NCBI GenBank assembly: GCA_046563655.1
Contig: CM102284.1
Location: 868,001 to 932,000, forward strand
Direction of reading: 5' to 3'
Length of the DNA stretch: 64,000 bases
Source of the DNA: Yuukianura sp. NJ FZ-2021
Taxonomy: Eukaryota
Shown here: positions 13,510 to 46,170 of the stretch, piece by piece
How positions within the stretch are numbered: the first letter of the stretch is position 1
Layout of the letters: the number at the start of each line of letters is the position of its first letter
The notes under the pieces: generated by a model
The model's database searches: none
Seen by the model: the letters and a program-made list of their open reading frames with translations, nothing else
Told to the model about the DNA's origin: nothing
Position numbers and translations under genes: made by a program

Positions 13510-15488
13510 CTACATGATCAGACATGTGACAAGTTTCTCAACACAAAATTGCCACACGACCAGACTCGTTGTTTTGTCAAAGAATCTACCGTCAGCCATG
13601 TTGAGCTGATACGGTGCGCACGACTTCATGTACATTCTGAGCCACCGTGATCCACCCCTGGGCATGTATTTCAGTTGTCCAAAAAGTTCTTCTGATCTGA
13701 TACGTGGCTCGGAGAGGAGCTTAAAGTGAACTTGAATTAAAATAGACGAGTCAATGAATAACAGGGCAAAGAACGTGTAGAGTTCCCACGGGAGTGTATT
13801 GAACATGCGAATGACAGCGAACATAGCTACGATGTTTGCCACCAACCACATCCCCAACACGATCTGCATGAATGGAAACTTCCAGTAGGCGTTGTTCTCA
13901 TTGTTAAGGATTTGAATACTCCGAAATTGTGTAATCGCATCTTCATTCCCTTGTCTCAACTCCCTAAAACACACGAACAACGTCTCATACGTCAAATAAT
14001 ACAGTGAGTGCCACGAAAACCTGCACACCAGAAATCTGTTTCCCTGGCAACAACTAAAATTATGGAGGCGGAAACGTAACTTTTGCGCTGAAAACCTTGA
14101 ATCTGTTGCAAAATTATCATTTCGGCTGTTTTCATGAAACCATTTTCCCCCCACAATTTAGCAAAATAAACAAAAAGCTGCTTTTGAGGTGTGCAGGTTT
14201 TCGTGGCACTCACTGTATATTATAATGTACGAGGTGTGCCAGCAGAAAGTAAACGCTCAAAAACAATCTGTGTGTTTATATGAGTAAATGTGAGGGGGAA
14301 ACCGTAAACCAGCAACAAATTCTATGCGTATACTTTTTGGTGGCACACCCTGTACAATGTCATACTTTTTTAACTCGAAACTATGCTTTGTTTTTCTTAA
14401 CGCATTAGTGCATTTGAACAAATGCAATATAGGCGCTATAGCAACCTTGGTATAATGTAAGACAGTAATGGGCACGAAGTGGAACCTACCAAGTTGAAAC
14501 AATGCTATGCCAAAAGTATGCGTCTGGGTGGGAATCGAACCCACGCCTATCTCCATTACGAGGAGCGTGTTCTGTACACTGAGCATCCAAGACCCCTTTG
14601 GCATATTTTACTGTCTTTCCCTGTACTGCAGGCTCTCTGTCCCGTCACAAATGGATCCTAATTAATAAATAAAAGAAAATAATAATTTAAAAAGAAGTCT
14701 CACCGATTAATCACTTCTATTTTCCTCGAAGCTACAAGACCCGGATAAACCAGCACCATCCAACCAACGCCAATGTACAATGAAATATTTCCCCACCAGT
14801 AGTACGCTTCAATTAGCATTCCCAGTATTTGGAAATATACGTTGGGCCCAGTTCCATTCCAGTCAGGGCACTCATCTGTGGTTGCAACGTATGATGTTAA
14901 CAGGAATGTCATGCAAGGTTTCCAGAGCTCAATATATCCGTGGGAACTTGGCATGAACCAAAGACTAGTCCAGGCCACTATGACGATTGCCAAGAAATAT
15001 TTTCTCACATATCCCGTTTCCTTGAAACTTTGCTCCATTTGGAATGGCCAAAGAATCAGCTGTTTCATGCTATTCATTCTTGTAAAGTAAAAGCAGGAGA
15101 GCGGAACAGAACATATTGCAAGAGCAGAATAGTAGAACATGACCAATTTCTTGCCTGTTAGTTCTGCTACGGTTTCAGTTGTTTCATGATTACGAACCGC
15201 CCAGAACCAGTAGCATCGGAAGCTGCTATGAATGAGCGATATAGTCAAGAACGCAATGAAATGCATCTTGGATACAACCTTGCTGTACGGCAGTAACCGT
15301 AAGGTTACGGTATCCAGGCGAAATGGGAACATTTGCAACTTAAGGTCCATTTTCAACAGACCTGCGCAGATGCCCAAATACTTGGAATTTTGGCGTCGTT
15401 CTGTATTAAAAAACAGAATAATAGTGGTATAATAAGAAATCCAGTCCAGGATGTGCCGTTTCAAATATTTGGCGCCTTTAGAATACAT
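13510..15488 (-). CDS. Divergent 7-TM chemoreceptor (GR-like), 2 exons, ~412 aa
   Basis: Exons 15488-14704 and 13963-13510 (phase 2); C-terminus SCAPYQLNMADGRFFDKTTSLVVWQFCVEKLVTCLIM. Confidence 0.7.
14002..14215. mobile_element. TA-flanked MITE (Tc1/mariner-like) in the GR intron
   Basis: 28-bp TIR CAGTGAGTGCCACGAAAACCTGCACACC / GGTGTGCAGGTTTTCGTGGCACTCACTG with TA on both sides. Confidence 0.9.
14230..14352. mobile_element. Small degenerate TA-flanked MITE
   Basis: TA-CGAGGTGTGCCA...TGGCACACCCTG-TA imperfect TIRs, with inner AAAGTAAACGC / GCGTATACTTT. Confidence 0.6.
14522..14593 (-). pseudogene. tRNA-like sequence (pseudo-tRNA or SINE head, possibly Thr-CGT-derived)
   Basis: Minus strand GTCTTGG...GCTCAGTG...CTCGTAA...GTGGGTTCGATTCCCAC-CCAGAC; good T-arm and a 6/7 acceptor stem, but irregular D and anticodon arms. 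Confidence 0.55.
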
Positions 15489-16353
15489 TGTTGCTATACA
15501 ACCTTCAGTTAAAAACTCCGTTTCACAGTGCTAAGTCACACAGTTTTGTTTAAGCTGCTTCTAAATTTTAAACAATGTTGATTTCATTTGGTGTTTAATT
15601 GGCAGTTTAGGTTTAGTTTTAAGTTTGGAAATCAATACCGTCGTAGTGTGTGCTCTCGGTATAGGTTACTCAAATTGGCAATTACCCTAACATTAGCATT
15701 AAACAGTAAACCAAAAGTATGGTTTGAATTTGGATTTTGATTAGTAATTCAGTCCGGAACGGTTAAGAGTACTGAAATTTTAAATTTCCCGGGACCTCCA
15801 GCTCCTGAGCCTATCAAAAGTACAAGGAAACATAATGGAGGGAGTTTAAATATTCCTTACTGACGCGAATAAGCCTAACTAATATGTGCTAATATGTGCT
15901 AATAAGTGCTTATGGAAATTCAAGTTCGTTTTTATCAAATTTCACTTTAGCACTCAATTTTTAAAATTTATGGCCAAATGTAACTATGTGATGCCAGTTT
16001 TCTATGAAGCATAAACCATGCAAGAAATTTATGGCGGTTCGATCCGGAATTTTTAGCACGCTTCGAGTGATTGGCTCGAGTGAAACTTTGAGCTAACGAT
16101 GATGAGGTCAACAGGGTCAATGTCAAATTTGTTTTTTTAGAATGAACTTTGGCACAAGTTTTGACATTTTGGACTAAAAATGAAGTCAAAAGTGTCCAAG
16201 GTTCGTTATCAACCAAAACTATTTCGAATGTTTTGATTAGACACACTGATTATCATTAAGATACCAGCGAAGGTAAAAACAACGAAATTTTTTGAAATCA
16301 ATTCAATCGACCTTCAATTTAAAAAATTTGAACCTTGAAAAATTCTAACCAAA

Positions 16354-22078: not shown

Positions 22079-22679
22079 AATTCTGGTAAAAAAATTTGAA
22101 ACACAAAGCGTTATGCCTAAAATCGACATCAATTTTTTCTGGTTTTGAAGAATTTGCTGATTTTTCGATAAGGTTAAAACTTTTATTGATAATATTAAAA
22201 AGTTTGAAAAATGACATGAACATTAATGAAATTTCAAAGTTAATTTAATACAAAATTGTCACGAAATGAACATCATAAAATTTTCAAGAGAGGAAAAAAA
22301 ATTCTAAATGCTTAGCACAAAAGGTCAAAGGTCAACTGCAAGGTCAATGTGAAAGTGAACATGCTTATGCTAATAGTGGTCAAAATTTACCAACCGTGTT
22401 AAATTTTTTTCCAGAATTTGCTTCCAACTATTTTAAACTCATTAATTAATATACATAATTTAAAAACTTTGACCTAAGAAAAGCTAGGATTAGACAATAA
22501 ATTCTCACGTGATAAAAATGCAACACGAAAGAACAAAAACTTGTGAAGGTCAAAATTTAGTTTTCACTTTACTGTGCTACATTGAAAACAGTATGCAGAT
22601 AGACATCTACCCACCCTACTCTATGTAGAAAGTTTCGAAATTTTGAAAAGTTCAAAAAAAATTCACTTCATAGAAAAAG

Positions 22680-25073
22680 ATGTTCAAGTGCTACGCTGTT
22701 GCCGCTTTGTATAGCCAATTCCTCATACTTTCAACCCTCCAACTACAATTTCCCACCGACTTTCACCCCAATTGTGACGTAAATTTTCTAGATATCAACA
22801 TGGGTGACCGTCCAGTTGACCTTTCGAGGTCAATCGCAAGGTCAATGACCTTCTACCAACCAACTACGGTATATAAGTCATGGACACACAATGATTCTGA
22901 AACGAAGAAGTCAGCTGACAAGGGTGGTCGGTCCGGTAAACTCTACAACACGACTGGCATGACCATGGGCCCAGGTCTGCTCAACCGCACAAAATGTTCC
23001 TGGAACATTGTCTTTTCTTCAGAGTGCTTCAACCGAGCAATTCCGTCCATCATGTACCCACAACTCGACCGTACTTCAACCATCCTCATCCTTGCCATAC
23101 AGTTACCCCAGAACGATCAATCAGCCTGCTTTGTACCGCGGTACTTTCATATCTCTGGACTCGGTCACGCGCAGGCTCAAATTTACGTTTTTCTGCTTAA
23201 ACCGGACGGTTCAAAAATCGAATCTCGCTATGCCTTGAGTTATTTTTACAGCAAACCTTATAAACCGGGACAAATTGCCGAAATACCGCTCATGACGAAA
23301 CTTGAAACCGGAACGGAATTTGCCGATCTACGGTCCATTTGGTACCAGATCAATTCAAACTACCACGAAATCAGACTGTCCATTATTGAAGCTCCAAATG
23401 ACGCTGTCAGAGATCGGCACTTCAAAACACACGACAAGGGCGGAAGATTGATTAACTCTGCACCGTATGTCCAAGCATGGGAGGTTCATGCGGAGTTTGC
23501 TAATTTGGATTTTTCTTACCCCGAGTCAACTGATCCGCAATACAAAAGCCGACTTTTGACGGCTGAAAAACGTCTCGTTTTGGAATTAAAAAAGGACTTA
23601 AATTTCACATTATTGAGAGGGGAGGTGTCAAAAATCAATGAATTTCAAGATTCCCGCACTGCATCTCTTTACTATATAAGGCACTACAGTGGAAAGGCGG
23701 CACTTGGTGCCATTTTTTTAAATTTCAGACATATGAGCACAGACCAAGACATAATTTCTTCACGTGACTACGGAGTGGCTGAACACGTCGGAGCAAGTCT
23801 CAAACCAGGACTTATTTACTGCCGACATGCGAAAGAGGATGGAGATCCGATCGATTTTTTGTTTTGGTTCAACTATATCCAACCGAAAGCTTTAATCTGC
23901 ACTTTAGTCGCAGCTTTTGCAATAAGTATCACAAAAAGACTCAAAATTCTAGCAGCAATGAATTTATCAAGCGTCGTAAAATCAAAGTCGCAACACGCAG
24001 AAGTAACAAACTCACAGACGCGAAAATTAAAATATTCAAAATCAACTGAATCGCTAAACGCAGAAACACCAAAGTTGCAAAACTCAGAATCAACAAAATT
24101 GCAAAAGTCAGAATTAACAAAACTGCAAAACTCAGATTCAACAAAATTGCAAAATTCGGAAACGCCAAAATTGCAAAACACAGAATCACCAATATTGCAA
24201 AACTCAGAATCGGAAAAATCGCGAAAATTGACGTCGCGGAAGTCGAACAACTCAGCGCCGCAACGCAATAGAAAAGAACCAAAAGTCGGCATTTTTCTTA
24301 CTCTACTCTCCCTGATTATTTGCACCTCGTACGAAACTTATTTATCCAGTGAAGTTACGGTACCGCCACCACCATCAGAAATCGGAACCCTTCAACAGCT
24401 GATATCTCGCTACAAAATTATCATAAGAAAACAAGGCGGTAACATTTTCTCCTACAACGATGATGAACACTTCATTAAATCTAACTTTATCTACTGGTAC
24501 CTCTGGCACCTGTTCAATGTCACTGGAATTGTGGACTCTTTCGACAATTCTATCATCATGGTTAAGCGACACGTCAAAAATAGTGTTTCAATTGAGACCC
24601 TAGATGGCGCTGAACTGTTTACGGAGGCCTTCAATTTCAAGTCTCAGTTTTACCTCCAACATTTTGGACCGAAACCGGACAAACGCTGCAACTTGTTTCA
24701 CAAAAAGTTTGATCGAATTGAAACTAAAGTTTTGTTTTCCAAGTCCCCGAGCCCTTTAGCGTATCAGACGTCGGTTCGATTCCTAGAAGGAGGATTTCTG
24801 GACTTCTGGAGGGGACTTAAGGTCTACGTGGAGTCCTACTTGGACAAAGTGCTAACGGAACGGATGGAAGCAGAGAGACACCAACCCAAACCGTTTGTGC
24901 TCACCAACTGGCGAATTCTGCCGACGTTTGTAATTTTGGGCATTTTACTTGCGTTTTGCCTCCTGGAGTTCCTCTTTGAGCTCGAATTTTTTGCTTACAG
25001 AATTTTGCTGTCTACTTTTTCATTTGGCAAAATGAAAAAGTCGGCACGAAATTTTGAAATTTGCAAAATTTAG
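22680..25073 (+). CDS. Divergent ionotropic-receptor (iGluR-like) protein, single exon, 797 aa
   Basis: Long ORF with a signal-like N-terminus, an M1-like segment (FLFWFNYIQPKALICTLVAAFAI), M3-like LIICTSYETYLSSEVTVPP (cf. SYTANLAAFL), RFLEGGFLDFW in S2, and a final TM (ILPTFVILGILLAFCLLEFLFE). Confidence 0.7.
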   Translation: MFKCYAVAALYSQFLILSTLQLQFPTDFHPNCDVNFLDINMGDRPVDLSRSIARSMTFYQPTTVYKSWTHNDSETKKSADKGGRSGKLYNTTGMTMGPGLLNRTKCSWNIVFSSECFNRAIPSIMYPQLDRTSTILILAIQLPQNDQSACFVPRYFHISGLGHAQAQIYVFLLKPDGSKIESRYALSYFYSKPYKPGQIAEIPLMTKLETGTEFADLRSIWYQINSNYHEIRLSIIEAPNDAVRDRHFKTHDKGGRLINSAPYVQAWEVHAEFANLDFSYPESTDPQYKSRLLTAEKRLVLELKKDLNFTLLRGEVSKINEFQDSRTASLYYIRHYSGKAALGAIFLNFRHMSTDQDIISSRDYGVAEHVGASLKPGLIYCRHAKEDGDPIDFLFWFNYIQPKALICTLVAAFAISITKRLKILAAMNLSSVVKSKSQHAEVTNSQTRKLKYSKSTESLNAETPKLQNSESTKLQKSELTKLQNSDSTKLQNSETPKLQNTESPILQNSESEKSRKLTSRKSNNSAPQRNRKEPKVGIFLTLLSLIICTSYETYLSSEVTVPPPPSEIGTLQQLISRYKIIIRKQGGNIFSYNDDEHFIKSNFIYWYLWHLFNVTGIVDSFDNSIIMVKRHVKNSVSIETLDGAELFTEAFNFKSQFYLQHFGPKPDKRCNLFHKKFDRIETKVLFSKSPSPLAYQTSVRFLEGGFLDFWRGLKVYVESYLDKVLTERMEAERHQPKPFVLTNWRILPTFVILGILLAFCLLEFLFELEFFAYRILLSTFSFGKMKKSARNFEICKI
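24061..24228 (+). repeat. In-frame 24-bp coding repeat (KLQNSE[S/T]x), about 6 copies
   Basis: GCAAAA recurs at 24077, 24101, 24125, 24149, 24173 and 24197. Confidence 0.9.
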
Positions 25074-25741: not shown

Positions 25742-25966
25742 CAAGATTGGTACCTGCAGATTGTTTTTTGTACAACAGGTTATTCAATAACTTAGAGCTT
25801 TTAATTTAAATAATTTGCAAAACTTGCTTCGCCATGCCTGTAATGTAATGTAATAGGAATTGGTGCAAAACTTGGCACTAAAGTTTTTGTCATTCAAAAT
25901 TTCTAAAACTTGGAGTTGTTGAGCAACCTGTTGTAGAAAACACAATTTGGTTGTCAAGGAACCTTG
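25742..25966. mobile_element. CAAG...CCTTG MITE with 8-bp TSD (P-like)
   Basis: Flanks CTCTAAAC (25734-25741) / CTCAAAAC (25967-25974); inner inverted ACAACAGGTT / AACCTGTTGT. Confidence 0.7.
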
Positions 25967-26205
25967 CTCAAAACCTAACACTTTTATAAATTGCAAATCT
26001 ATTTTTCCTTCTAGTACTCAACGGAAATTGGACATTGTTCGCTCTGTAGTTGTGCTGAATTTTATTTTTTCGGAAAACTTCCACATAATTACGCTGTGAG
26101 CACTTTGCTTTATGTTACTAGCTTCGTCGGGTTTTAGTTTTTGGGAACACTTCACGAAAATACGCTGTTACAGCTACAATAAAATTCAAAAGAAGAAGTA
26201 CAACA

Positions 26206-27855
26206 ATGCTGTCCAAAGCAACGTGGAATTATGTTTTGAAAACAATCGATGCTGGATTCAAGTGGAAAGTTTATTCCTTCAGAATAGTTAGGACAACCCG
26301 TGGATATAGCGTCATCACTTCTCAAAACGTTATTGTTAACAAGGTGTTAATGGCGGCAACTTTGAGTGTCAACATACTGCTAGCTGCTTTGTCGACCTAT
26401 GCAGCATCATTGTTTCCACACATTCCTCAAATTTCTGCCAGTTGGGGTGCATTAGCTGTTGCCGCCGCATTTGTGTGTGGCTTTCAACTGTGGTACTGCG
26501 TCTACATGAAACAAATGTGTTCAGCAATTTCGTCCATGCTCAAGTTTTATGCTCAACTCCGTAAGTACAATATTTTAACTATAGAATTACGTCAAAAGTT
26601 AAGCTTGTCTAGGCTTTTTATAACGCTCCTGGCCATTTTTGTTCATTTACAGACAAACGACATGGCGTGCCACAACATGCTCCACAAGGAGATGAATTTG
26701 ATGTGACGTTCAAATTTATGTATTTGGCATACATGTATATGCAAATGTTTGGTACGGCTACAGCGGTAGGGTTCTTCTTGTTCACTGACAACCTCCTTAC
26801 GAATTCCGGCTACTTTTTCGTCGCTCATATGCTAAAGTCATTTACTGGAGCTGAAAGTATTAGCACTTATGTCGTGACATCAACGAGTGTTTTGTTGATA
26901 CTTGTTACGTGCTTAAGCATAGTCCATGCTGGATCCATACTCTACCTTTATGCCAACCTGCTACTCATATATGCTAATACATGTCGCCATTGGATGAAAC
27001 ACTTGAGGTATGAAGTATGCATATTTTGCAATACAATGATACGCTTTCAGTTCTATATAATAGAGCTGCCAAAATATGTGCTTAAAACCAGTGAAATATT
27101 TAGTTAATATTTACTACCAAAACCCGAATATATTTATCTAAGTATTTACTATAAACTCTTCAGTATTTATAGAACAAAGTGTCATGTAAAAGCCTTGATA
27201 TTTCAAAAATCGTGAAGAAATGGCGCCAAATGTTTATGATTCTCATAAATATTTGGTATTCTTTTTCTTCTCCAAATTCTTTTTTAAATCTTGAAATATT
27301 TTCTATTTAAATATATACGTTTGGCAGCTCTGACATGACAAAATGATTTAGGAAGTGGAATATTTTGTTTATAGGAAATGCATTTGCAACGCAAACACAA
27401 ACACAACCATGCGAAATACGCATGAAACGGAATTCACAGGGCATCAAGTCCTCAATGCATTCATGAACGATATTTTCGCCAATGTTACTGCTTTTGGGAT
27501 TTATTTCTCAGAAGTCCTTTTAATCCTCGGAACCTACAAATGCATAAGACTTGGCGAAAAAGACTTCATTGTGTTCGTACAATTGGTCGCCACTGCCGCC
27601 GGAACTATATTTGTCGGACTCAAAACTATAGTAAATCTGGGAGTACTCTGTTACACCAATTCTGCTGAATGTTGCAGAGCTGGCCAATTTCAAATTCATG
27701 AAGGGATGGGCTGCAGCCGCAGATTTTGGAAGTCAAAGAAGCAACTTGTCATGCGAGTAGGACAGCAATTTGTGATGGACTCGAACGAATTTCTTCTTAC
27801 GTTGTTTGGAGTAATTCTCACTGACAATGTTACTACTCTCCTTCTTACGTTTTGA
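26206..27855 (+). CDS. Divergent 7-TM chemoreceptor (GR-like), 3 exons, ~396 aa
   Basis: Exons 26206-26560, 26653-27007, 27375-27855 in frame; C-terminus RFWKSKKQLVMRVGQQFVMDSNEFLLTLFGVILTDNVTTLLLTF. Confidence 0.7.
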
Positions 27856-28382
27856 TCAAACCCACTCCCGCACTCTCCATTTTTAGCACATTTGCCTTAT
27901 TTTGCCAATTTTTACATACTTACCTTTTGTGTAATCTAAATAATTTATTATTGGCACTTTTCTCATGTATTGTTCGATATTTTACAATCAAAATATTGTG
28001 TTAAATCCGAAATCCGTTTTTCTGGGATCACACCCCATCCGTGGTAAGTTTGACTAATTATGGTTCTTAGTTAACTCGGATTCAGAATCTATACCAAAGA
28101 CTGATATAAAGCAGTTTTTTAATACTAAAAAATCTCTGACATTTTTTCTAGCAACGCCGATCGGAAGTTTTTAATGAAGAAAATTAGTAATTTACAATTT
28201 ATTGATGTTTGTTATGCAACATTATAAACTTAATGTAAGTTTCATCATATGCTAATTATATTTTGAAATAGTATGCATTATTTGTCAATGTATGTTATAC
28301 AAAAGCTTAGTATATATTTATACTATATAATTATGAATATATAGTATAAATATACATTTAAACTATTATATTATACTATAAA

Positions 28383-30127
28383 TTAGTCATCTTTTGATTT
28401 GAGAGTTTCTCTGGACATAGATGTCGCTTTGCAGCGCTGTAGTTTTGATTTGACCAAAATTTCCAATAATTCTTCGCGCTTTTTGTGCGAAAGTGCTTTA
28501 GGTGCAAGGTTGGTCGTTGGAGCAAATGGCTTGTTCAGATCTGAATACATCCAATCTTCAGCCGAAAGCATGCGACTCCCGGTGATCATGTCCATCTCAG
28601 CATGGATCACACGACAAAAGTCATCCAGAGGCTACCGGAAGTCAAAATTTCAAAATTCATAATTCAGAAAAGTCAAAATTTTCCCAAAGTGTTTTTTACC
28701 AAGTCATTTTCGTCATATCCAAATGGGTTTTCAATTTCGTAGGCTACAGAGAGTATGCCGAGGAGGCAAAACGAGCCGAGTCCCACAACTATCAGCGCCA
28801 TCCAGCCCATCGTGCCAATAATTTGAAACGGAAGGCTCAAAATGTAGAGCCAAACGGTGACGTGGAGGTGGATCGAGTAGGCCATTGGAATTGGCGTTTT
28901 CAAAATACGTTCAAAGTTTGAAAAAGTGTCAACCAAACTCGTAAGTGCTGCAGAGAACAAATGGGAAAAAGATTAGCGCAAGTTACATTTTTTTGTAGTG
29001 GAAAATGTGGAAGCAACTAAATTAGGTACACGTAATATACGAAGTAACTATAGTTTTGTGTAAAATTCGGAGGGAGTAACCATATACTTTGTTTCGTAAA
29101 TATGGAGGGAGTAACTATCTTGTAAAATGTGGAGGTAGTGTGTTTTATAAAATAGGGAGGAATTAACTATCTGTGTGTAAAATATGGAGTAAATGTATGG
29201 AGTAAATATGTGTTTTGTGAAATATGGAAGGAGTAAGTTCAATTTTTTCTTATGAAGTTTGGAGGGAGTAACTAAATATTTTTTTAAATCTTACAGTTTT
29301 GCATAGTGGTAATGGCCCATCCTGGTGCTAGGTTGTTTGCATTAACGTATTTGATGTACGACAGAATGTAGTAAGAGATTTCAATCGGTATGTTCGTGAG
29401 TGTCGCAGTGTCGTATGCCATTAGCTGCGTTCCATGCGCTCCTCTTTTAACACCAACGGCCCTTGAAGCTGCATCTAGCTGCTCCCTTGTACTAAATCTT
29501 GGTAAATGCTCAATGAGACTGCGCAGATCATCGTACTGATCAGAATATTCTGCACGCAGGTAATGTTTTGTAGCTACTGCAAAAGCCAACAGCAAATTTA
29601 GCGCCGATTTCTTCTCAATTAGCGACTTCGGTTCAGGTTCCTCTACTACCGCCCAAATGCATCGTGTTAACTTTCTCACATCTTGGATTATCTGTGTCCA
29701 TAGTTTTCTTCCTTCCCAGTATCTGTGAACAAGGCAAAAAATTTAAACGCGGGAGTTCCAAAATTCAAAATTTTAAAAATTTGAATTACCCGGCACTTAT
29801 TTGTTTCATAATTTACCTGTCATAGGCACTGTTTGTTCTGAAACCCAAGAGAAGTCCGACGACCACGCCCAGAATTGGAATCAAAGTTTGCGGGAAATCT
29901 AGTCGAATTACGGACGTGTGAACCACCAAAATACAAAACGTATAAATCAAAATCAACACAACTTTCCACCAAACTGTAACAAAAACTGTGCCGCGCAGAC
30001 GCATCCACCACAGCAAGTCGTCTCGACTTGCCCCACTTATGTCCTCCATCCCTCTAACTACTGCTTGCACTTCCTTGGATTCTACCAAACATTTGATCTT
30101 TTCTTCAAGAAACTTGATCTTTTCCAT
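28383..30127 (-). CDS. YneE/UPF0187-type (microbial/plant VCCN-type) bestrophin-like anion channel, 4 exons, ~411 aa
   Basis: Exons 30127-29817, 29722-29295, 28947-28700, 28631-28383 in frame; signatures LLLGFRTNSAYDRYWEGRKLW, FAVATKHYLR, ERILKTPIPMAYSIHL, EIENPFGYDENDLPLDDFC. Confidence 0.9.
29040..29275. repeat. Degenerate ~30-35-bp tandem repeat in bestrophin intron 2
   Basis: Recurring (T)GGAGGGAGTAAC(TA) / GTAAAATATGGA; an inverted single copy occurs at ~56795. Confidence 0.6.
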
Positions 30128-31849
30128 TTCAATCTCCAAACTTTTTTTACAAAGTTCAAAATTGATGCTAAATTTTTCTTGAGTTGGAGCCAAAAGTTAA
30201 ATTTAGAGCTATGGAGCAGCACGTACACAGATTTCCGTGAAAAAAAAAGTTCAGCAAAGTCAGTCACATGTTGAAGTTTTGAAAACTTATGAAGAAACTG
30301 TAAGTTTAAATGGAGACACAAAGTTATCTAAACTATGATTAATTAACCATAAAGTCACAATTAACTAAAGTATTAAAGTTGTAGATTGACTATTTGGGTT
30401 AAGCTTATCTTGGCGGCTGCGCTTACACTTTCAACTTTTCTGTCGAGAATACACAAAAATTGTTAATCTTAAACTTGGATTTTAATCAGCAAACCAGAAA
30501 AGTTTGGTTACTTTTTCTTGTTTTTCTTGTTGCATGACAACATTTGATACGCAAAGCACCAACAAACCATCTCCTTTGTACTTTTTTTTTTGAAGTTTCA
30601 AGGTCAAGGTCACCTAATGTTGTACTTTGGTTTATGTGCCTTATGTTGTGCCCATGGTTTGCTGTGCTACCATACCCATATATGATGTCACCTCTCGCCT
30701 AATATACAGTCTACATTAGCATTTACGGGGCATTGCTTTCACTCGTTTTCCACCAAAAACGGAACTTTTTCTTAACGCAGTGTGCAACTTTTTCAAAATT
30801 TTTCCACTTTTCACTTTATTTTTTGCTTATTTTTAAAGTTTTCAGAATAAGCAAGCCAATCAGTAATTATAAACAAACTTATCGGTTGATAATTGTTCGC
30901 GGAATTACCTGTGCTCCTTAGTATTATAATAAACTAATCTAAAAGTTTATGAAAACATGATTTCGCAAGCTTATCAGATCATAATTTCCGTCCACTTTTG
31001 TTGCTCATTCGTATGACTAATGAAAATAGACGCCACTCATTTGTCATAGAAACGAAGGCAAACAAAATGTGCAAAATAAACTACGCTCTTTGTATACTTT
31101 TTGCAAAGTTGCAAAAAATTGAATGTTGCAAAGATACAGAAAAATCCTCCTCTACCACATAGTGTTCCATACTCCAAAATCCAGCTTAGGAGGAAAGCAG
31201 ATTGTTCAATTGACAAAATTTTTATTTTTTTAGCACACAAGCATAAAGGCCATGCACAAATTTTTCCTTATTGTGCAAAGGACAACTGTTTGAGGTTATT
31301 TAAGTTCAGATTTAAAAAAATTAGGCCAGTCAGAATTAATTGACACTTCATCAGTTTTTGTGCTTCATTCATGTCAATCTCTTCCTCTTGTGGTTACGCA
31401 TTTGTGGTTGACTGTTCAATATTAAACTGACAGTTCCAACTTAAAAGTTTCAATTTTTTGGCAAGTGTTGGCTATCTTTTTCTTTATCTTTTGTGTTAGT
31501 GTTGCTACACTCTGCTAAACAGAGTAAGTTCAAGTTCCTATACTGGTAAGTCAGTGGGACACGAAGAATGTTTTTTGTATTGAGGTGCAGTAGGCTAAAA
31601 TTACACTTTGTGCTCCTTTAGTTTCTATTTTGAACTTTGTTTACAGGTTTCATTTTTGAAAAGGTCACTTTTTCACTGTTTGCATTGGAATTTCATGAAA
31701 ATGGAGTTGAGACACGTAGTGCTCAGAGTGGTAATAAACAAACCGGTGTTCGATTTTTTGTTGGGGTTTGAAACAAACCCAAGGAAAAATGTTGGTGTAA
31801 GTTGAACTTTTGAATTGAGGGGAATTTTTTTTTTTTGAATTTGTAGGAC

Positions 31850-33018
31850 ATGGGGATCCAAGGAATCCTGACGTATTTAATTTTTTCACACTTCAATCCA
31901 TTCATAACTTGCCAAAACCTTGGACCATCAACTAAGGTAAAAGTTAATACTAAAATATTAAACTTTACGTTAAGAATTTAACTAATCAGGTCAAAGGTCA
32001 GGTGAAACTTAACGTTAATGGAAAGATCAAGTTGAACTAAACAAATTTTGCTTAGGCCTAGTCACATCAGAGGTTTTATGACAAGTTTTCGCCGTTTTCC
32101 AAAGAAATTGAAAAACACAAGGATTTATTTGTTTTTAGTTTTTGTTTATTTTTTATTAAAAGTTTTATTTTGAAAAAAAAATCAATTATTTTACAAAAAA
32201 AAATTTCATTTGTCAAAAATTTGCAAAATTTTCAATTTTTTCTGATTCTGCAGGAACATGATACTCTGAGCGCCGGAGTTTCAAATCAGCCAATCATCGA
32301 CGAGACTTCAAAATTGACCGAAAAAAGTTCATATACTGCAACCTCCACTGTCGGATCGAGTGAAACTGCCCGGGAAATTTATCTCTTTTTTTCAAATGAC
32401 TTCGCCTTTGGTGCCATCATCGCCTCCATCATATTTCTCCATGCTTTCATCCTATTCGTCATGGGACAACCAATCATATCAAAGAGCGGGAAAATCAAAT
32501 TGTGGGAGGGAAATATCAACGGACCAGAAAATTCGCAACAAATTTCCGACTGGTACACTTTCAGCCATGTACTTCACGGAGCCATTTTCTATGGAGTGGC
32601 TGCAGGAATAGTTGCTCTCTTCCCATTGGCTGACGTTGGAGTCAAAGCGTTTTTCATTGGTGCGCTGCTTGTGGAAGGTTTATGGGAAGTGATTGAGAAC
32701 TCTCCTTGGGTGATTGAGCGTTACAGAGCAACTGCATTGGCCAATGGATATAACGGAGACAGTATTCTAAACAGCATCTGTGATACTGTTGCCATGTCAA
32801 TTGGCTTCTGGTTGGCCTATGTCCTCCCCCCGTGGCTCACCGTGACCTTGGCCATTGCTGAGGAACTGATTTTGGCATTCCTTATTCGTGACAACTTGAC
32901 TCTCAATGTGATTCAACTCATTCATCCATTTGAAGCAATTTCAAAATGGCAAACGGCGGGAAATTCAAACTCAAATTCAGCTGCTGAACAACAGAATCTT
33001 AATGAAGCAAAAGAATAA
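31850..33018 (+). CDS. DUF2585/UPF0314 family membrane protein (bacterial-type), 2 coding exons, ~283 aa
   Basis: Exons 31850-31936 and 32254-33018 (phase 0); motifs MGQPII..G.IKLW.G...ENSQQISDWYTFSHVLHG, WEVIENSPWVIERYR, GYNGDSILNS, IRDNLTLNVIQLIHP..AI..WQ. The first exon is less certain. Confidence 0.85.
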
Positions 33019-34130
33019 ACTACAGTCAAAACCGGAACTCAAAAAACTTTTTACATTTTGATAGTTTAATTTAAAAAGAACTTTTGTTTTTCTCAACTTT
33101 TAATTAACATAATTAACGACAAAATATTTGTGTCGCCTCTGCTTTTTAATTTTCACTTCACTTCGTGTTCTTGCCTTTCAAATTCAGTCCTCGATTAACT
33201 ACCACTTTGAAAATAACCGCAAATGGGTTTTGCTTAAATCTGACGCAAATATTAATTGCTGGTGCTGCATCGTTAGTGTGAATTCTTACTAATTGTTCCA
33301 ATTAGCGGAAAATTAATATGTAACGTCAACATTTTTTGTTTTGTGGTAGGACTTACTCAAAAGTTTTTTACATTTTTTATTTAAATGTTCAGTTTTATGT
33401 TTTTCTAGCAACTGCTTATTGGGTCCAAGAAAAATAAATTCAATTTTTGATTAAGCTTCTATAACTTTGACTAACAATGCAATAAAATTCTGGAAATACA
33501 AAAATTAAGGTGAGTTTGTGTATACCTTTCACTTTAGGTTATATAGCTTACCCAGTAATTGTACAAGTAAAAAAAGTAATTCCAGTAGAATTTCAAAAGT
33601 AAAAACGAAATTATTAGTTTTTTTAATGTTTCTTTATGATTGTGAAATATACTCTGTAAGTTACGTCGAAACTTATTTTTAATTCCGTGCATTCGCAGAA
33701 TTTTGATTTTATCTTCAAACGAATCTTTTAAATTAGCCGAGTTTCGTTGAAATTTTCGGCCCTGTTTTCTGTCATCAATCATAAAAATTTTAGTAACAAA
33801 CCGCTTAAACAAAGGCGGTTCAATTTGAACTTTTTTTTTATATATTTGCTTGCATGGAATCGCCACCAAGCATTCTGAACCATAAGCTAAATATTTCATC
33901 TTTTAGCCTGTATTCCAAAACTAAAACTTTTCCAAAACTTTTAGCCCATGTTTTCTCAAGGCGACAGTATAATTGCGGAAGAGTAATACAGCCGTTGTTA
34001 CCCAATAGCCGTATAAACTTTAATCTAACGAAAACATTAGACTTTCTAGTTTTAGTAGGTCAACATACAAAAAATTCTTAGAATCTTAAAATTGCATTTC
34101 TGGTTATGAAATAAGGTCAGTAGGTTAACC

Positions 34131-35620
34131 ATGGAATTGTATTATCGAATTTTGGACTTTTCCTATCGAACATTCAATTCTTCACTCAAAGTATGCGCGA
34201 GCGGATTCAATCCTGGTTCACTTGACACTTCACAAAAGTACAGGAAAGTGTATCACCGGTGGATCCTATATGACGGTTTTATGTTACTACAAGTCATCAT
34301 CACTCACATTATATTAAAAACTTACACGTTTAGCCCATCTGCTGAAACATGCGTACATTTTCTTCTACCAGTTGCAATGTTAAATCCAGCACTTGATGTA
34401 ATTGGCAATACAAATCAAATCTACAGGCTCCAAACACTCAATTCTGTGCGCTACGCTATCGTATCAAATAGAGGTACAAATGCATTAATTTGTACTACAT
34501 TAAGTTACATTCTTACACTACAATTGCTTAAGCAATGCATTGTTGCATATAATACATAGGCATGAAAGTTACATATACTATGTAATATATGTAATTATTA
34601 TTGCATAATGCAAAACAAATGCATTAATATACAGTGGTGGCACCAAAACCTGCACACCCGAAATTTGTACCCCAACTAAAAGTGTGGAGGTTTCCGTGCT
34701 CCTCACTGTATATTCTGTATTATTATCAAACTGTACATATTATCAAAATTATATATGTGTACTACATACACAATACTAAAAAAATTGATAATATTTAATT
34801 ACCTTACCTTATCTACACATTTAAAAAAATTTCAGCAACAAGACGTTTGTGGAAAACCCTCCTCAGATCGAACTTAGCAGAGACAATGTGGATTCATGGA
34901 GCTTGGACGACATCTTTGATTATTTTTGTTGCGGGGTTTTACATCATGTACCAAGAAGATGCGATCTTGTATGTGCAAATTTTGAACAAAATCCTGTTTC
35001 CGTTCAAGGTACTTCCGCCAGGAGTTGTAACTATCATTGCAACTTTTGGTCGAATTACAACTGTAGGTGGTATTGCAATTTCATGGATCAAGGTTTACAC
35101 CGCAATTGCTCAAATTTCAATTTTTGTTACGGGATACACGGCTCTCTCAGATCACATTTTGGAGCAACCTGGCTTCAACCCACTGGGTTTTTATCGTCTC
35201 CGCCTTCTCATTGGTCTGTTTAACGAGGCCCATCGCAACCTCATTGCAATTCTGACACTGAATTTAGTCGTAAATGTTACAATGGCATATGGATTCGGCA
35301 TCTTGGAGGAATCGGCGGTGCTTGCTGGGAGTTTGACGCTCTTTGCAACTTTTGTGTTGCTGGGGCTGCTCAACTTTTATTGCAAGGCGGCTGCCATGCG
35401 GGCCAATTCACAAAAGTGGATTTACAAATGGCGCCAAACTTTTGCATGGAGCCTGGAACGGAACAGGGAAAAAAGATTCTACGTACGGAAGACGATAAAC
35501 TCAATTCGTGAATGTAGAGTAGAAGTGTGTGAAATGTATACGATTACGTACTCGCATATTTTCGTTATAATCAATACAATTGTGAACAATGCTATTACAT
35601 TTATTGCTTACTGTAAGTAA
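34131..35620 (+). CDS. Divergent 7-TM chemoreceptor (GR-like), 2 exons, ~375 aa
   Basis: Exons 34131-34473 and 34836-35620 (phase 1); C-terminus KTINSIRECRVEVCEMYTITYSHIFVIINTIVNNAITFIAY. Confidence 0.65.
34632..34708. mobile_element. 77-bp deletion derivative of the 14002-14215 MITE
   Basis: TA-CAGTGGTGGCACCAAAACCTGCACAC...GTGTGGAGGTTTCCGTGCTCCTCACTG-TA. Confidence 0.7.
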
Positions 35621-44056: not shown

Positions 44057-44587
44057 TTAGTAGAAGAAATTAATTGACTGTGTAAACAATGCGACTGCGA
44101 CCAGTAGAGTAGTCATACTGCCACTGCAATTGTGTTTCATCGTTGCAGCGTCTTTCGCGGATCCTGAATTTCCTGTTGCAACTTTAGCATCGTCCTTTGC
44201 AGATCCTGAATTTCCTGTTGCAACTTTAGCATCGTCCTTCGCGGATCCTGAATTTCCTGCATCGTTCACAATTTTCTGGATTTCAGCATCCGTACACTTG
44301 ATTAGCATCGGATTTCTGCCATTGCCCACAGTCGTCAGGTCACAGCATTTGTCCTTAACCTTCTTCGCAAGGTCAAGGTAATGGAGGGATTCCTTCTTTC
44401 GCTTGTCACTCTCAAACACTCTCCTCAACTTATCCATGTATTCTGACTCGCTGTAATGCCTTTCGCAAGCGTCTTCCGCAAATACTTTAGCCGTCTTCCA
44501 TTTATTCGTTTGATCCACGGCTTTGGCTTGCCCAGTGCAAAAACTGACGACTGCGAAGAAAACAGCGGCACTCAAAATCCAGCTCAT
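44057..44587 (-). CDS. Secreted, probably GPI-anchored small protein (C..CC..C), paralog A, with 14-aa repeats
   Basis: Signal MSWILSAAVFFAVVSFCTG; KKVKDKCCD...CTDAEIQKI; GNSGSAKDDAKVAT x~2.6 (42-bp repeat); hydrophobic C-terminal tail TTLLVAVALF. Confidence 0.7.
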   Translation of the reverse strand: MSWILSAAVFFAVVSFCTGQAKAVDQTNKWKTAKVFAEDACERHYSESEYMDKLRRVFESDKRKKESLHYLDLAKKVKDKCCDLTTVGNGRNPMLIKCTDAEIQKIVNDAGNSGSAKDDAKVATGNSGSAKDDAKVATGNSGSAKDAATMKHNCSGSMTTLLVAVALFTQSINFFY

Positions 44588-44975
44588 TTTTAGGATTGAA
44601 CAACGTGCGAATTCGTTGGAGAAGGGCATGACCCTCAGTTTTAATTCTTCCGATCAGCAAAATCGCGACCTTTTGAATGCTTGAACATGAAAAAGTTAAG
44701 TTTTGAATGCAAAGCATTTGTTATGTGTCAAACCAAATAAATTAACAAATCATTGTCATGGAAACCTGATCGGTAGTTCAAAAATATCGTTTCCACCAAA
44801 AATATCTGCAAAAATTAAATCTTAAAGCCAAGGGCATATATTGAGGGCTAAACTTAAAAAAACGAAACCCAAAGTTTCAATAATCAACAATATTCAGGAA
44901 ATTGTATGTAAGCAGTTTACTGAAATCATTGATTTGAAATGCCAATAAGCAACTTTACAGTAAAATTGAGAATAG

Positions 44976-45449
44976 TTAGTAGGAATCAGTTGACTGTGCA
45001 AACAATCCGACTGCGACCAGTAGAATAGTGATAATAATGCTGCTGAAATTGTGTTTCGTAGTCGCAGCGTCTTTCATTGATCCTGACTTTTTTATTTCAA
45101 CTTCAGCCTCCTTCGCAATTTTCTGGATTTGAGCATCCATGCAGTTGGTTAGCGTGGATACTCTGCCATCAGTCTTCACGTCACAGCATTTGTCTTTAAT
45201 CTTCTTCGCAATAGCAAGGTAACTGAGGCCTTCTTCCTTTGAAATTTCGATTTTGTTGCCTTTCTCATCCACACCATCTTCAAACATTTTCTTCAGGTTA
45301 GCAGTGTAGTTTGGAACGTAATTTTGGCAATCGGTGTTGGCAATTCGGCGAGTCAACTTCAGTTTAGCCGATTCGTCCAGCGGTTTGGTTTGTACGTTGC
45401 AAAAACTGACGACAATGGAAAAAACAGCGGCGTGCAAAATCCAGCTCAT
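44976..45449 (-). CDS. Secreted, probably GPI-anchored small protein, paralog B
   Basis: MSWILHAAVFSIVVSFC; KKIKDKCCD...CMDAQIQKI; tail IIITILLVAVGLF; clearly homologous to 44057-44587. Confidence 0.7.
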   Translation of the reverse strand: MSWILHAAVFSIVVSFCNVQTKPLDESAKLKLTRRIANTDCQNYVPNYTANLKKMFEDGVDEKGNKIEISKEEGLSYLAIAKKIKDKCCDVKTDGRVSTLTNCMDAQIQKIAKEAEVEIKKSGSMKDAATTKHNFSSIIITILLVAVGLFAQSTDSY

Positions 45450-45506
45450 TTTACGTTCGAATTCTCCGGAGCAGAGCTTGACCCTAACGCCTGCTACGGA
45501 CTTATA

Positions 45507-46170
45507 GTTCAATTTTTAATGTTTGACCCTTTGTTGATTTTCTTTTTCCATTCAAAATTCAGTTACAGGGGAAATGAAACGGAATTTTTGTTGCCGTAAT
45601 TATATTTAATTATAAAATAATATCTCCAGCAATCCAGGATAGAATTATTTGCGCTAAAAATATCTCCACATACATTATATCTGGATTAAAAAAATCTGGA
45701 TTAAAAGGTGGCAAAATTTTAAGGACCCATTCAATTAATTTAAAGTCTGGAAATATTCATTCGTGGAGATAAAATTTTTTTTTTATAGAAATTAGTTTTT
45801 GTGGCGGTGGCAAACTGCAAGGAGACCGAATGTACGTTCTAAATGTCGCCGAGAGTGATCCGGAATGTAAAAAGAAAAGCAGGAAATACGCGGAGTTTAA
45901 CTGACAGCAAAGTGCTTTGAGTTCGAAGTTCGAACTTGTTGAAAAGTGTCCGAACTTGGATGCCCTAAAAGTAAATAGTGGTAAGAATTAGGAAGCACAT
46001 TATCATTGAAATTGGAAGGGATTCACCATTAGACTCAACTTCAGATGAGGAATAGAAACAGCTTTTATGCTGTTCGATTGGTTCCGTACATTTGTGTTCA
46101 GTTATCGAAATTGCTATTAGCAACACAATTTGTTCACAGTAAACAAAGGGTCAAACATTAAAAATAAAAC
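45507..46170. mobile_element. TIR element flanked by TATA/TA, inserted upstream of paralog B
   Basis: GTTCAATTTTTAATGTTTGACCCTTTGTT at 45507 versus AACAAAGGGTCAAACATTAAAAATAAAAC ending at 46170; TATA on both sides; homology to paralog A upstream (AATTCTTCCGATCAGCAAA) resumes right after. Confidence 0.7.

What the first reader, a model, noticed from the sequence alone, without database searches (positions are those of the whole stretch)
28383..30127. Non-animal-type (YneE/UPF0187) bestrophin with a fungal-looking C-terminus and three introns
Seen: FRTNSAYDRYWEGRKLW and ERILKTPIPMAYSIHL...EIENPFGYDENDLPLDDFC...DWMYSDLNKPF. Known: animal bestrophins use RFP-type motifs, whereas these signatures belong to the bacterial/fungal/plant (VCCN) branch. 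Inference: the PLD.FC..I..E.D.I...DW...N.P tail resembles fungal members, suggesting transfer of an anion channel from a fungus, plausible for a fungivorous soil arthropod.
Basis: partly seen in the sequence, partly recalled or inferred. Interest (0 to 1): 0.72.

Follow-up and report, generated by a model that had tools for sequence, protein, structure and literature searches.

The report
Fungal-type bestrophin channel gene in a springtail
A springtail genome carries an intact, intron-bearing ion-channel gene of the bacterial/fungal bestrophin type whose closest named relatives are in other springtails and in Mortierella-like soil fungi, so it is best read as one copy of an old fungus-to-springtail gene transfer.

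Summary
On the minus strand, 28383-30127 encodes a 411-aa protein in four exons with three GT-AG introns of 94, 347 and 68 nt. Exons 1-3 each pass the Pfam cut-off for PF25539 Bestrophin_2. The animal family PF01062 stays below its cut-off.

The host is a springtail. Its SMARCC gene, in the same window, groups with Allacma and Orchesella.

Among animals I found homologues only in springtails: 12 named proteins from four species. With Mortierellomycota they form a clade (99/95) inside the fungal radiation. Holding all fungi together against springtails is rejected (AU p=0.0047). Holding springtails together is not rejected (p=0.24).

Base composition and codon use match the host. The three intron sites recur in springtail-like paralogues from metagenome contigs but not in Mortierella-like loci.

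Best reading: an old fungus-to-springtail transfer that later duplicated. The product is probably a pentameric channel with a hydrophobic neck (V88/L92/F96). Ion selectivity and expression are not shown.

Fungal genes in springtails are a known phenomenon, and this family is not mentioned in the main texts I searched. Moderate interest.

The parts
29817..30127 (-). Exon 1 (311 nt; M1 to the first two bases of codon R104). It encodes the N-terminus, TM1 and TM2, including the FRTNSAYD motif.
   Evidence: PF25539 E=2.2e-10, 41 bits. Hydrophobic stretches at residues 44-78 and 76-100.
30047..30049 (-). Alternative start codon (M27).
   Evidence: Homologues begin 15-35 residues before the RLKGTV motif. 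Codons 2-16 overlap a 21-nt x2.1 tandem repeat at 30080-30124. No RNA data are available to decide.
29840..29866 (-). Codons V88 to F96: the predicted pore 'neck' V88/L92/F96 on TM2.
   Evidence: The profile alignment to KpBest puts these residues at the I-x3-I-x3-F positions before the conserved R. Neck residues are taken from PMC8496536 passages.
29723..29816 (-). Intron 1 (94 nt, GT-AG, phase 2, inside codon R104 of AYD-R-YWEGR).
   Evidence: Same site and phase in metagenome loci L004 and L006. The Mortierella-like loci L008 and L011 have an intron 10 nt upstream instead.
29295..29722 (-). Exon 2 (428 nt): YWEGRKLW through TTMQN, the cytosolic helices.
   Evidence: PF25539 E=1e-13.
28948..29294 (-). 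Intron 2 (347 nt, GT-AG, phase 1, in codon S247). It contains 13-nt and 35-nt tandem repeats at 29180-29283.
   Evidence: Same site and phase in L005 copy 1 and in L014, L024 and L033.
28700..28947 (-). Exon 3 (248 nt): the ERILKTPIPMAYSIHL motif, TM3/TM4 and EIENPFGYDENDL.
   Evidence: PF25539 E=7.7e-28, 98.3 bits. PF01062 scores only 17.6 bits against a cut-off of 24.2.
28632..28699 (-). Intron 3 (68 nt, GT-AG, phase 0, between L329 and P330).
   Evidence: Same site and phase in L013, L024 and L033 and in L006 and L014.
28383..28631 (-). Exon 4 (246 nt plus the stop codon): PLDDFC...DWMYSDLNKPF and a basic C-terminal tail.
   Evidence: No Pfam hit. It aligns to the tails of springtail and Mortierellomycota homologues.

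Best explanation
This is a genuine host gene of a springtail. It encodes a Bestrophin_2 (UPF0187/YneE-type) membrane protein descended from a gene exchanged between a Mortierellomycota-related fungus and an early springtail. The most likely direction is fungus to animal, before the deep springtail lineages split. The gene then duplicated into several paralogues, acquired spliceosomal introns and took on host base composition. The window copy belongs to a paralogue group otherwise known only from unnamed environmental sequences. By homology the protein should assemble as a homopentamer with four TM helices per subunit. A central pore would be gated by a hydrophobic neck on TM2 (V88, L92, F96), and a cytosolic domain would be extended by a tail specific to this clade. 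Shown here: gene structure, family membership, host identity, clade membership, rejection of fungal monophyly, and intron sharing among springtail-like paralogues. Inferred: direction and timing of transfer, pentameric channel function, and anion preference (by analogy with VCCN1 and the fungal AnBEST1).
For: Family. PF25539 scores above its cut-off on 3 of 4 exons. A profile that includes the exons hits KpBest at 1e-39, bestrhodopsin 7pl9 at 2e-29 and VCCN1 7ek1 at 7e-23. A model of the nearest full-length homologue P0419 (54% identical) has pLDDT 72 and matches KpBest with target-normalised TM-score 0.72-0.76. The window protein keeps 84 of the 95 columns that are invariant in 11 homologues.

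Host integration. The same 64-kb window holds SMARCC, dynactin p62, an acid lipase and a rhodopsin-type GPCR. SMARCC groups with Allacma and Orchesella at SH-aLRT 100.

Host-like composition. CDS GC is 0.442 and GC3 is 0.466, inside the host ORF range of 0.31-0.49. The RSCU correlation with host ORFs is 0.54, against 0.48-0.64 for host genes compared with each other.

Independent data. A 1893-nt contig from a run of another study and another coded organism covers 28364-30227, introns included, with 72 differences and 26 gaps.

Distribution. Of the 120 hits listed out of 2670, 9 carry springtail names and none carries the name of another animal. Three more springtail proteins came from cluster look-ups.

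Phylogeny. In the careful 53-row tree a clade of 29 rows has support 99/95. It holds the window protein, 10 named springtail rows, 9 unnamed rows, 8 Mortierellomycota rows and one long-branch Rhizophagus row. The 188-row FastTree recovers the clade with 36 rows and support 100, without the Rhizophagus row. Holding 28 fungal rows together against 11 springtail and 2 cyanobacterial rows costs 32.75 lnL, p-AU 0.0047. Springtail monophyly is not rejected (8.81 lnL, p 0.24).

Introns. All three window intron sites recur, with the same phase, in 2, 4 and 5 of 9 springtail-like metagenome loci. The Mortierella-like loci L008 and L009 are uninterrupted at sites 2 and 3, and L011 at least at site 2. 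L008 and L011 have a differently placed intron near site 1.
Against: No RNA run holds the stretch, so expression and splicing are not shown. In the best tree Mortierellomycota sit inside the springtail paralogues, as sister to the main springtail group (97/92), with the window group outside. The tree alone therefore does not give the direction of transfer or the number of transfers. Only 120 of the 2670 hits were listed with names, and the 150 representatives carry no names (30 look-up queries spent, one P0249 repeated, 29 distinct; about 21 of them among these 150). Other animals with more distant copies cannot be excluded. The springtail origin of the metagenome loci rests only on best matches and GC content. 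The structure model is of a 54%-identical proxy, because a spliced sequence could not be handed to the folding tool. KpBest, the closest solved structure, is a Na+ channel, so an anion preference is not secure. The AU groups were tested after trees had been seen.
Confidence: 0.72

Rival explanations
1. The direction is reversed, or transfers were repeated. Either Mortierellomycota acquired the gene from a springtail, or springtails took genes more than once from the stem lineage of these fungi.
For: In the careful tree Mortierellomycota (100/100) are sister to the main springtail group (97/92). The window group (100/99) and the Folsomia_a group branch outside that pair. The 188-row FastTree has the same shape. 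Springtail paralogue branches are deeper than the Mortierellomycota crown.
Against: Springtail monophyly is not rejected (p 0.24). The family is widespread in fungi, with chytrid, Zoopagomycota, Glomeromycota and Umbelopsis names, but among animals was seen only in springtails. A springtail source would therefore itself need an earlier import. The W-x5-N-x-P tail is also present in Umbelopsis (2 of 2), which fits a Mucoromycota origin of the tail.
Confidence: 0.12
2. Vertical inheritance. The gene comes from the common ancestor of animals and fungi, was kept only in springtails and was lost in all other animals.
For: Rooted on cyanobacteria, the springtail plus Mortierellomycota clade is one of three branches of an unresolved basal split in the 53-row tree. 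Names were seen for only a small part of all hits.
Against: Fungal monophyly is rejected (p 0.0047). Identity to Mortierellomycota is 39-46%, the same as to springtail paralogues (38-51%). No other animal name occurs among the 120 best of 2670 hits. This scenario needs many independent losses.
Confidence: 0.04
3. Fungal contamination or a chimeric assembly: the gene belongs to a fungus in the sample and not to the animal.
For: Springtails eat fungi, and fungal DNA is common in whole-body libraries. The sequencing runs that hold the stretch look mixed, with many contigs at 80-95% identity.
Against: The gene lies in the middle of a 64-kb window with animal genes on both sides. Its GC and codon use match the host ORFs, whereas the Mortierella-like loci have GC 0.49-0.51. 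Its introns are at springtail-type sites and not at the Mortierella-type site. Identity to any fungal protein is at most 46%. Four named springtail assemblies annotate homologues.
Confidence: 0.02
4. A decaying relic: an intact-looking but unexpressed or non-functional paralogue.
For: No RNA evidence is available. 11 of 95 family-invariant columns differ. The start codon region is a tandem repeat. The window protein has a fairly long terminal branch (0.96).
Against: The 411-codon frame is open across four exons with canonical splice sites. 84 of 95 invariant columns are kept, and most of the 11 changes are conservative, such as R>K, L>M, I>V and S>T. The neck and the EIENPF/PLDDFC motifs are intact.
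Confidence: 0.05

Closest known systems
Springtail Bestrophin_2 paralogues (for example Folsomia candida 'UPF0187 protein alr2987' P0069; Allacma fusca P0364; Orchesella cincta Ocin01_08903 P0363)
   Same: Same Pfam family, similar length (about 400-450 aa) and the same C-terminal tail. Identity to the window protein is 38-51%. They fall in the same clade.
   Different: None is an orthologue at high identity. The window copy sits in a separate paralogue group whose other members are unnamed environmental sequences (P0367 and P0419 at 54%, P0373 at 57%).
Mortierellomycota Bestrophin_2 proteins (for example Mortierella sp. GBAus27b P0003, Lobosporangium transversale P0012)
   Same: 39-46% identity over about 350-400 residues. 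They share the PLDDFC...W-x5-N-x-P tail (19 of 19 rows) and the clade (99/95).
   Different: Most have a longer insert between the cytosolic helices. The environmental loci that resemble them have GC near 0.50, an intron 10 nt upstream of the window's intron 1, and none at sites 2 and 3.
KpBest, the Klebsiella pneumoniae bestrophin homologue (PDB 4WD7/4WD8)
   Same: Closest solved structure by sequence profile (1e-39) and by fold of the proxy model (target-normalised TM-score 0.72-0.76). It has a hydrophobic neck triad at the same positions. It is a pentamer with four TM helices per subunit (PMC8496536 passages).
   Different: KpBest has about 300 residues and no extended tail. Its neck is I/I/F and it conducts Na+. 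The window protein has V/L/F. Identity of the proxy model to KpBest is about 24%.
VCCN1 (plant thylakoid voltage-dependent Cl- channel, PDB 7EK1)
   Same: It is a Bestrophin_2-type eukaryotic member, hit at 7e-23. Its neck is P184/L188/F192, with Leu in the middle and Phe last as in the window protein (PMC9076864 passages).
   Different: VCCN1 has a chloroplast targeting region and an N-terminal voltage-sensing extension. The Glu three residues after the neck Phe (E195) is Asn in the window protein, as read from the sequence.
Animal bestrophins BEST1-4 (Pfam PF01062)
   Same: A distantly related fold family. There is a weak match on exon 3 only (E 0.0022, 17.6 bits).
   Different: The match is below the Pfam cut-off of 24.2. 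The protein has no RFP tripeptide. The Ca2+-clasp was not examined.
AnBEST1 of Aspergillus nidulans
   Same: It is cited as a functional plasma-membrane anion channel of a filamentous fungus of the bestrophin type. I saw only the title, in a reference list.
   Different: Its sequence was not compared here. Dikarya rows fall outside the springtail/Mortierellomycota clade.

Membership tests
Pfam PF25539 Bestrophin_2 (bacterial/fungal bestrophin, UPF0187/YneE type) | Profile match above the curated cut-off | tested here: met
   Exons 1, 2 and 3 score 41, 51.9 and 98.3 bits against a cut-off of 27, covering profile positions 14-77, 79-147 and 192-273 of 288.
Pfam PF25539 Bestrophin_2 | Bestrophin fold (four TM helices plus a helical cytosolic domain) as in KpBest | tested here: inconclusive
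   This was tested only on a proxy. The model of P0419 (54% identical) has pLDDT 72 and pTM 0.62 and matches 4wd7 at E 5.9e-10 with target-normalised TM-score 0.72-0.76. The window protein shows hydrophobic stretches at 44-78, 76-100 and 282-318. The spliced window protein itself could not be folded.
Pfam PF25539 Bestrophin_2 | Three hydrophobic neck residues spaced i, i+4, i+8 on TM2 | tested here: met
   V88, L92 and F96 align to the KpBest I-x3-I-x3-F positions. Neck definitions come from PMC8496536 and PMC9076864 passages.
Pfam PF25539 Bestrophin_2 | Homopentameric assembly and ion conduction | not testable with these tools
   Five copies exceed the size limit of the complex predictor.
Animal bestrophins BEST1-4 (PF01062) | Profile match above the cut-off; RFP motif | tested here: not met
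   Best score is 17.6 bits against a cut-off of 24.2, on exon 3 only. No RFP tripeptide occurs in the 411-aa translation.
Horizontally acquired gene of springtails (fungal source) | Physical linkage to native animal genes | tested here: met
   The same window holds SMARCC (SWIRM 9e-29), dynactin p62, an acid lipase and 7tm_1. SMARCC groups with springtails.
Horizontally acquired gene of springtails (fungal source) | The gene tree places the animal genes inside the donor group, against the species tree | tested here: met
   The clade with Mortierellomycota has support 99/95. Fungal monophyly is rejected, p-AU 0.0047.
Horizontally acquired gene of springtails (fungal source) | Absence from other animals | tested here: inconclusive
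   No non-springtail animal name occurs among the 89 hits or the 120 listed of 2670. Most hits were never shown with names.
Horizontally acquired gene of springtails (fungal source) | Domestication: host-like composition and host-specific introns | tested here: met
   GC3 and RSCU lie within the host range. The intron sites are shared with springtail-like loci and not with Mortierella-like loci.

The most novel reading that the evidence does not exclude
The springtail/Mortierellomycota bestrophin clade may record gene traffic in both directions between springtails and the fungi they graze. The Mortierellomycota copy would then derive from a springtail paralogue, which would be an animal-to-fungus transfer. 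In addition, the window may hold a small cluster of foreign-origin membrane-protein genes, because a bacterial-type DUF2585 gene lies 1.9 kb from the bestrophin gene.
Probability: 0.1. Interest if true: 0.75.

Novelty: new member of a known kind. Interest (0 to 1): 0.45.

Why it matters
Springtail genomes are already reported to hold hundreds of foreign genes, about 30% of them fungal in Orchesella cincta. These are mostly enzymes of carbohydrate metabolism (PMC4987106 and PMC5490193, passages seen).

A pore-forming ion channel family is a different kind of acquisition. It was imported, kept across deep springtail lineages, multiplied to at least four copies per species and equipped with introns. 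A channel has to fit into membrane physiology rather than add a digestive activity.

The finding gives a concrete, testable case of channel-gene transfer into an animal. It also points to Mortierellomycota, common soil moulds, as the partner lineage.

Tried and rejected
- **Own genome:** none is held for this window, so paralogue number in this genome is unknown. Only one copy lies in the window.
- **RNA evidence:** no RNA holder was listed for the stretch, so expression could not be examined.
- **Reads:** all runs were contigs. No piece bridges from the gene into a neighbouring gene, so they add nothing on linkage.
- **Earlier findings of this scan:** nothing by place, sequence or words.
- **Protein atlas with P0069:** returned only generic Bestrophin_2 clusters from Ascomycota, Basidiomycota and diatoms. 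No use for origin.
- **Metagenome scan with alignment A2:** It was repeated with full-length rows.
- **Shared intron 1 between Mortierella-like loci and the window:** tblastn breaks looked the same. Exact reading shows a 10-nt offset and a different phase, so the idea was dropped.
- **Rhizophagus cluster P0252/P0404:** it joined the clade in the 53-row tree on a branch of 3.31 but not in the 188-row tree. I treat it as long-branch noise.
- **Literature searches:** bestrophin + horizontal gene transfer + Collembola gave 0 papers. UPF0187 + springtail gave 0. UPF0187 + bestrophin + fungi gave 1 irrelevant paper.
- **Papers checked for 'bestrophin':** 0 occurrences in the main texts of the Folsomia, Orchesella and Holacanthella genome papers and of the metazoan HGT compendium. 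Their supplementary gene lists were closed and may well list these genes.
- **Homopentamer prediction:** not attempted, because it exceeds the size limit.
- **First submission of this report:** returned for a missing confidence field and sent again.
Full report
**1. What is there**

Reading 27800-30800 and listing stop-to-stop frames shows four minus-strand coding blocks. Joined at canonical GT-AG sites, they give a 1236-nt CDS: 30127..29817, 29722..29295, 28947..28700 and 28631..28383. This encodes 411 aa. The introns are 94, 347 and 68 nt long, in phases 2, 1 and 0, with GC 0.28-0.31 against 0.44 for the CDS.

Homologues align across all three junctions without gaps, which supports the gene model independently.

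The start is uncertain. M1 lies in a 21-nt x2.1 tandem repeat at 30080-30124, and homologues begin closer to M27.

**2. Family**

Exons 1-3 each match Pfam PF25539 Bestrophin_2, the 'Bacterial/Fungal Bestrophin protein', above its cut-off: 41, 51.9 and 98.3 bits against 27. The animal family PF01062 reaches only 17.6 bits against 24.2, and only on exon 3. Exon 4 has no Pfam match.

A profile that includes the exons finds these solved structures:
- the Klebsiella homologue KpBest (1e-39),
- a bestrhodopsin (7pl9, 2e-29),
- apple VCCN1 (7ek1, 7e-23).

This is P0419, 54% identical, folded with an 11-row alignment. The model has mean pLDDT 72 and pTM 0.62. Its best PDB matches are KpBest chains, at E 6e-10 and target-normalised TM-score 0.72-0.76.

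The window protein keeps 84 of the 95 columns that are invariant among 11 homologues, and most of the 11 changes are conservative.

**3. Host**

The window also holds:
- a SMARCC gene with SWIRM and SWIRM-associated domains,
- dynactin p62,
- an acid-lipase exon,
- a rhodopsin-type GPCR,
- a UPF0184 protein.

The 465-aa SMARCC frame is most similar to Allacma fusca (59%) and Orchesella dallaii (56%), against 40-51% for most full-length matches from insects, crustaceans, molluscs and vertebrates. In a 22-row tree it forms a clade with those two springtails at SH-aLRT 100. The three branches are about equally deep. The host is therefore a springtail, or something branching with springtails, and is not close to either named species.

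**4. Relatives**

- Exon 2 searched against longer proteins gave 89 hits. Nearly all are Mortierellomycota, then Calcarisporiella, chytrids and two cyanobacterial rows. One hit carries an animal name, Folsomia candida.
- A profile search of 1.84 billion representatives gave 10096 hits at E<=1e-3 and 1013 at E<=1e-30.
- A second word-based search used a profile of springtail-like rows. It listed 120 of 2670 hits. Nine carry springtail names, none carries another animal's name, and the rest carry early-diverging fungal names or no name.
- Cluster look-ups named three more springtail proteins.

In total there are 12 named springtail proteins: Folsomia candida 4, Orchesella cincta 4 (two with adjacent locus tags), Orchesella dallaii 3 and Allacma fusca 1. 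The window protein is 38-51% identical to them. It is 54-57% identical to the unnamed sequences P0367, P0419 and P0373, and 39-46% identical to Mortierellomycota.

**5. Phylogeny**

- An overview FastTree of 126 rows and a careful IQ-TREE of 53 rows by 439 columns agree.
- One clade has support 99/95. It holds the window protein, all named springtail rows, nine unnamed rows, the eight sampled Mortierellomycota rows and one Rhizophagus row.
- The Rhizophagus row sits on a branch of 3.31. In a 188-row FastTree it falls elsewhere, while the clade (36 rows) keeps support 100.
- Inside the clade, Mortierellomycota are monophyletic (100/100) and sister to the main springtail group (97/92).
- The window protein forms a separate group with four unnamed rows (100/99).

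I ran two AU tests.
- Holding 28 named fungal rows together against 11 springtail and 2 cyanobacterial rows, with 12 rows left free, costs 32.75 lnL. It is rejected at p 0.0047.
- Holding the 11 springtail rows together against 30 others costs 8.81 lnL and is not rejected, p 0.24.

Both tests were run after trees had been seen. So the springtail genes are specifically related to one fungal phylum. A single entry into springtails is compatible with the data, but the tree does not give the direction.

**6. Signs of long residence**

CDS GC (0.442) and GC3 (0.466) lie within the range of 13 other frames in the window (GC3 0.31-0.49). The RSCU correlation with host frames is 0.54, against 0.48-0.64 for host genes compared with the rest.

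A scan of metagenome contigs returned 80 loci. Two sets matter here:
- Nine loci (L004, L005, L006, L013, L014, L022, L023, L024, L033) have GC 0.38-0.44. They match springtail or unnamed clade members best; L024, for example, is 72% identical to a Folsomia protein.
- Three loci (L008, L009, L011) have GC 0.49-0.51 and are 63-78% identical to Mortierellomycota proteins.

Exact junction reading gives the following.

| Window intron | Position and phase | Shared by | Clearly absent from |
|---|---|---|---|
| 1 | phase 2, in the Arg codon of AYD-R-YW | L004, L006 | L005, L014, L023, L024 |
| 2 | phase 1, codon after MQN | L005 copy 1, L014, L024, L033 | L004, L006, L013, L022 |
| 3 | phase 0, NDL\|PLDD | L006, L013, L014, L024, L033 | L004, L005, L022, L023 |

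The Mortierella-like loci L008 and L011 have an intron in phase 1 in the Ala codon of T-A-Y-D. That is 10 nt upstream of window intron 1. L008 and L009 are uninterrupted across sites 2 and 3, and L011 at least across site 2.

The introns are therefore old within the springtail-type family, were lost differentially, and are not inherited from the sampled fungal relatives. The springtail origin of those nine loci is inferred and not shown.

**7. Independent occurrence**

A contig of 1893 nt from a run of a different study and a different coded organism covers 28364-30227, introns included, with 72 differences and 26 gaps. It does not reach the neighbouring genes.

**8. How it probably works**

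Bestrophin-family channels are homopentamers. Each subunit has four TM helices, and a central pore is narrowed by a hydrophobic neck on TM2 and by a cytosolic aperture (passages of PMC8496536 and PMC9076864).

The known neck residues are:

| Protein | Neck residues | Conducts |
|---|---|---|
| KpBest | I62/I66/F70 | Na+ |
| Animal BEST1 | I76/F80/F84 | Cl- |
| VCCN1 | P184/L188/F192 | Cl- |

Changing the middle residue of KpBest to Phe switches it towards Cl-.

In the profile alignment the window residues at these positions are V88, L92 and F96. The paper's KpBest numbering is 3 lower than the chain numbering. I matched the I-x3-I-x3-F pattern directly before the conserved Arg, and that matching is my inference.

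The window neck is closest in pattern to VCCN1. A fungal member, AnBEST1, is cited as a plasma-membrane anion channel, but I saw only its title in a reference list.

I therefore expect a pentameric channel, more likely anion-conducting than cation-conducting. Selectivity, gating stimulus and membrane location are all unshown.

The C-terminal tail beyond PLDDFC is conserved in springtails. It is also present in Mortierellomycota (19 of 19 rows) and Umbelopsis (2 of 2). It is absent from cyanobacterial rows, which end soon after that motif. Part of the tail is helical in the proxy model, and the last 27 residues have low confidence. Its role is unknown.

**9. Prior knowledge**

Springtail genome papers report foreign genes on this scale (passages):
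- Orchesella cincta: 253 foreign genes, 30.4% of them fungal.
- Folsomia candida: a set of foreign genes, among them 87 cases with Rhizophagus irregularis as the indicated source.
- Holacanthella duospinosa: 96 fungal candidates.

None of these main texts, nor that of the 2026 metazoan HGT compendium, contains the word bestrophin. Three literature searches for the combination found nothing relevant.

The case is thus a further member of a known phenomenon, fungal genes in springtails. It is unusual in being an ion-channel family that expanded after transfer.

**10. Verdict**

Novelty: new member of a known kind. Interest: moderate, 0.45.

Noticed in passing
window 32062-33018 (+): A 318-codon open frame matches DUF2585 (PF10755, E 4e-62, residues 131-299), a family seen almost only in bacteria in the atlas clusters. 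It is 45-55% identical to proteins in 22 bacterial loci (Xanthobacteraceae, Saccharibacteria, Acidobacteriota, Rhizobium and others). It lies 1.9 kb from the bestrophin start and has host-like GC3 (0.473). There is no in-frame ATG before its first hydrophobic helix, so an upstream exon is likely. This is a second candidate foreign gene next door.
   Followed up: partly
window 32380-34000: In run X5 (another coded organism) one 2716-nt contig covers this stretch at depth 274.6, while neighbouring pieces have depth about 5. The contig's first 537 letters do not match the window upstream of 32380. The loose end reads like part of the 34799-35620 frame. This suggests a rearranged or multi-copy segment in the relative. 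Unexplained.
   Followed up: no
window 30080-30124 and 29180-29283: A 21-nt x2.1 tandem repeat overlaps codons 2-16 of the bestrophin frame. Tandem repeats of 13 nt and 35 nt fill part of intron 2.
   Followed up: partly
window 25784-26067: Summed contig depth in all four runs is 10-30 times that of the flanks (for example 10548 against about 300-400 in X2), with many loose ends at 25839-25967. This is probably a dispersed repeat.
   Followed up: no
window 22674-25073 (+): A 799-codon open frame has no Pfam match. It contains a run of near-repeats of the type (S/T)xKLQNSE in its middle and hydrophobic stretches at both ends.
   Followed up: no
window 44057-44653 (-) and 44976-45515 (-): Two neighbouring frames encode similar small proteins. 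Both have the start MSWIL..AAVF, a shared KKxKDKCCD motif and a hydrophobic end. Neither has a Pfam match. They look like a tandem pair of lineage-specific secreted or anchored proteins.
   Followed up: no
L005:31-883 and L005:1753-3183: One metagenome contig holds two tandem copies of a close relative of P0367/P0419 (about 70% identical). The first copy is cut by the contig end. Their intron sets differ in part from the window gene: introns near residues 160 and 217, none at site 3.
   Followed up: partly
L008:2628-2766 and about 2830-3000; L011:1531-1905: The Mortierella-like loci carry an intron in phase 1 in the Ala codon of FRTNT-A-YDRYW, only 10 nt from the springtail intron site. L008 has a further intron after residue 58. 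This is a near-coincidence of independent intron sites.
   Followed up: yes
window 26122-27855 (+), 34110-35620 (+), 998-1840 (-), 13510-15530 (-): Several multi-pass hydrophobic frames flank the gene and have no Pfam match. They may be divergent chemoreceptor-like genes.
   Followed up: partly
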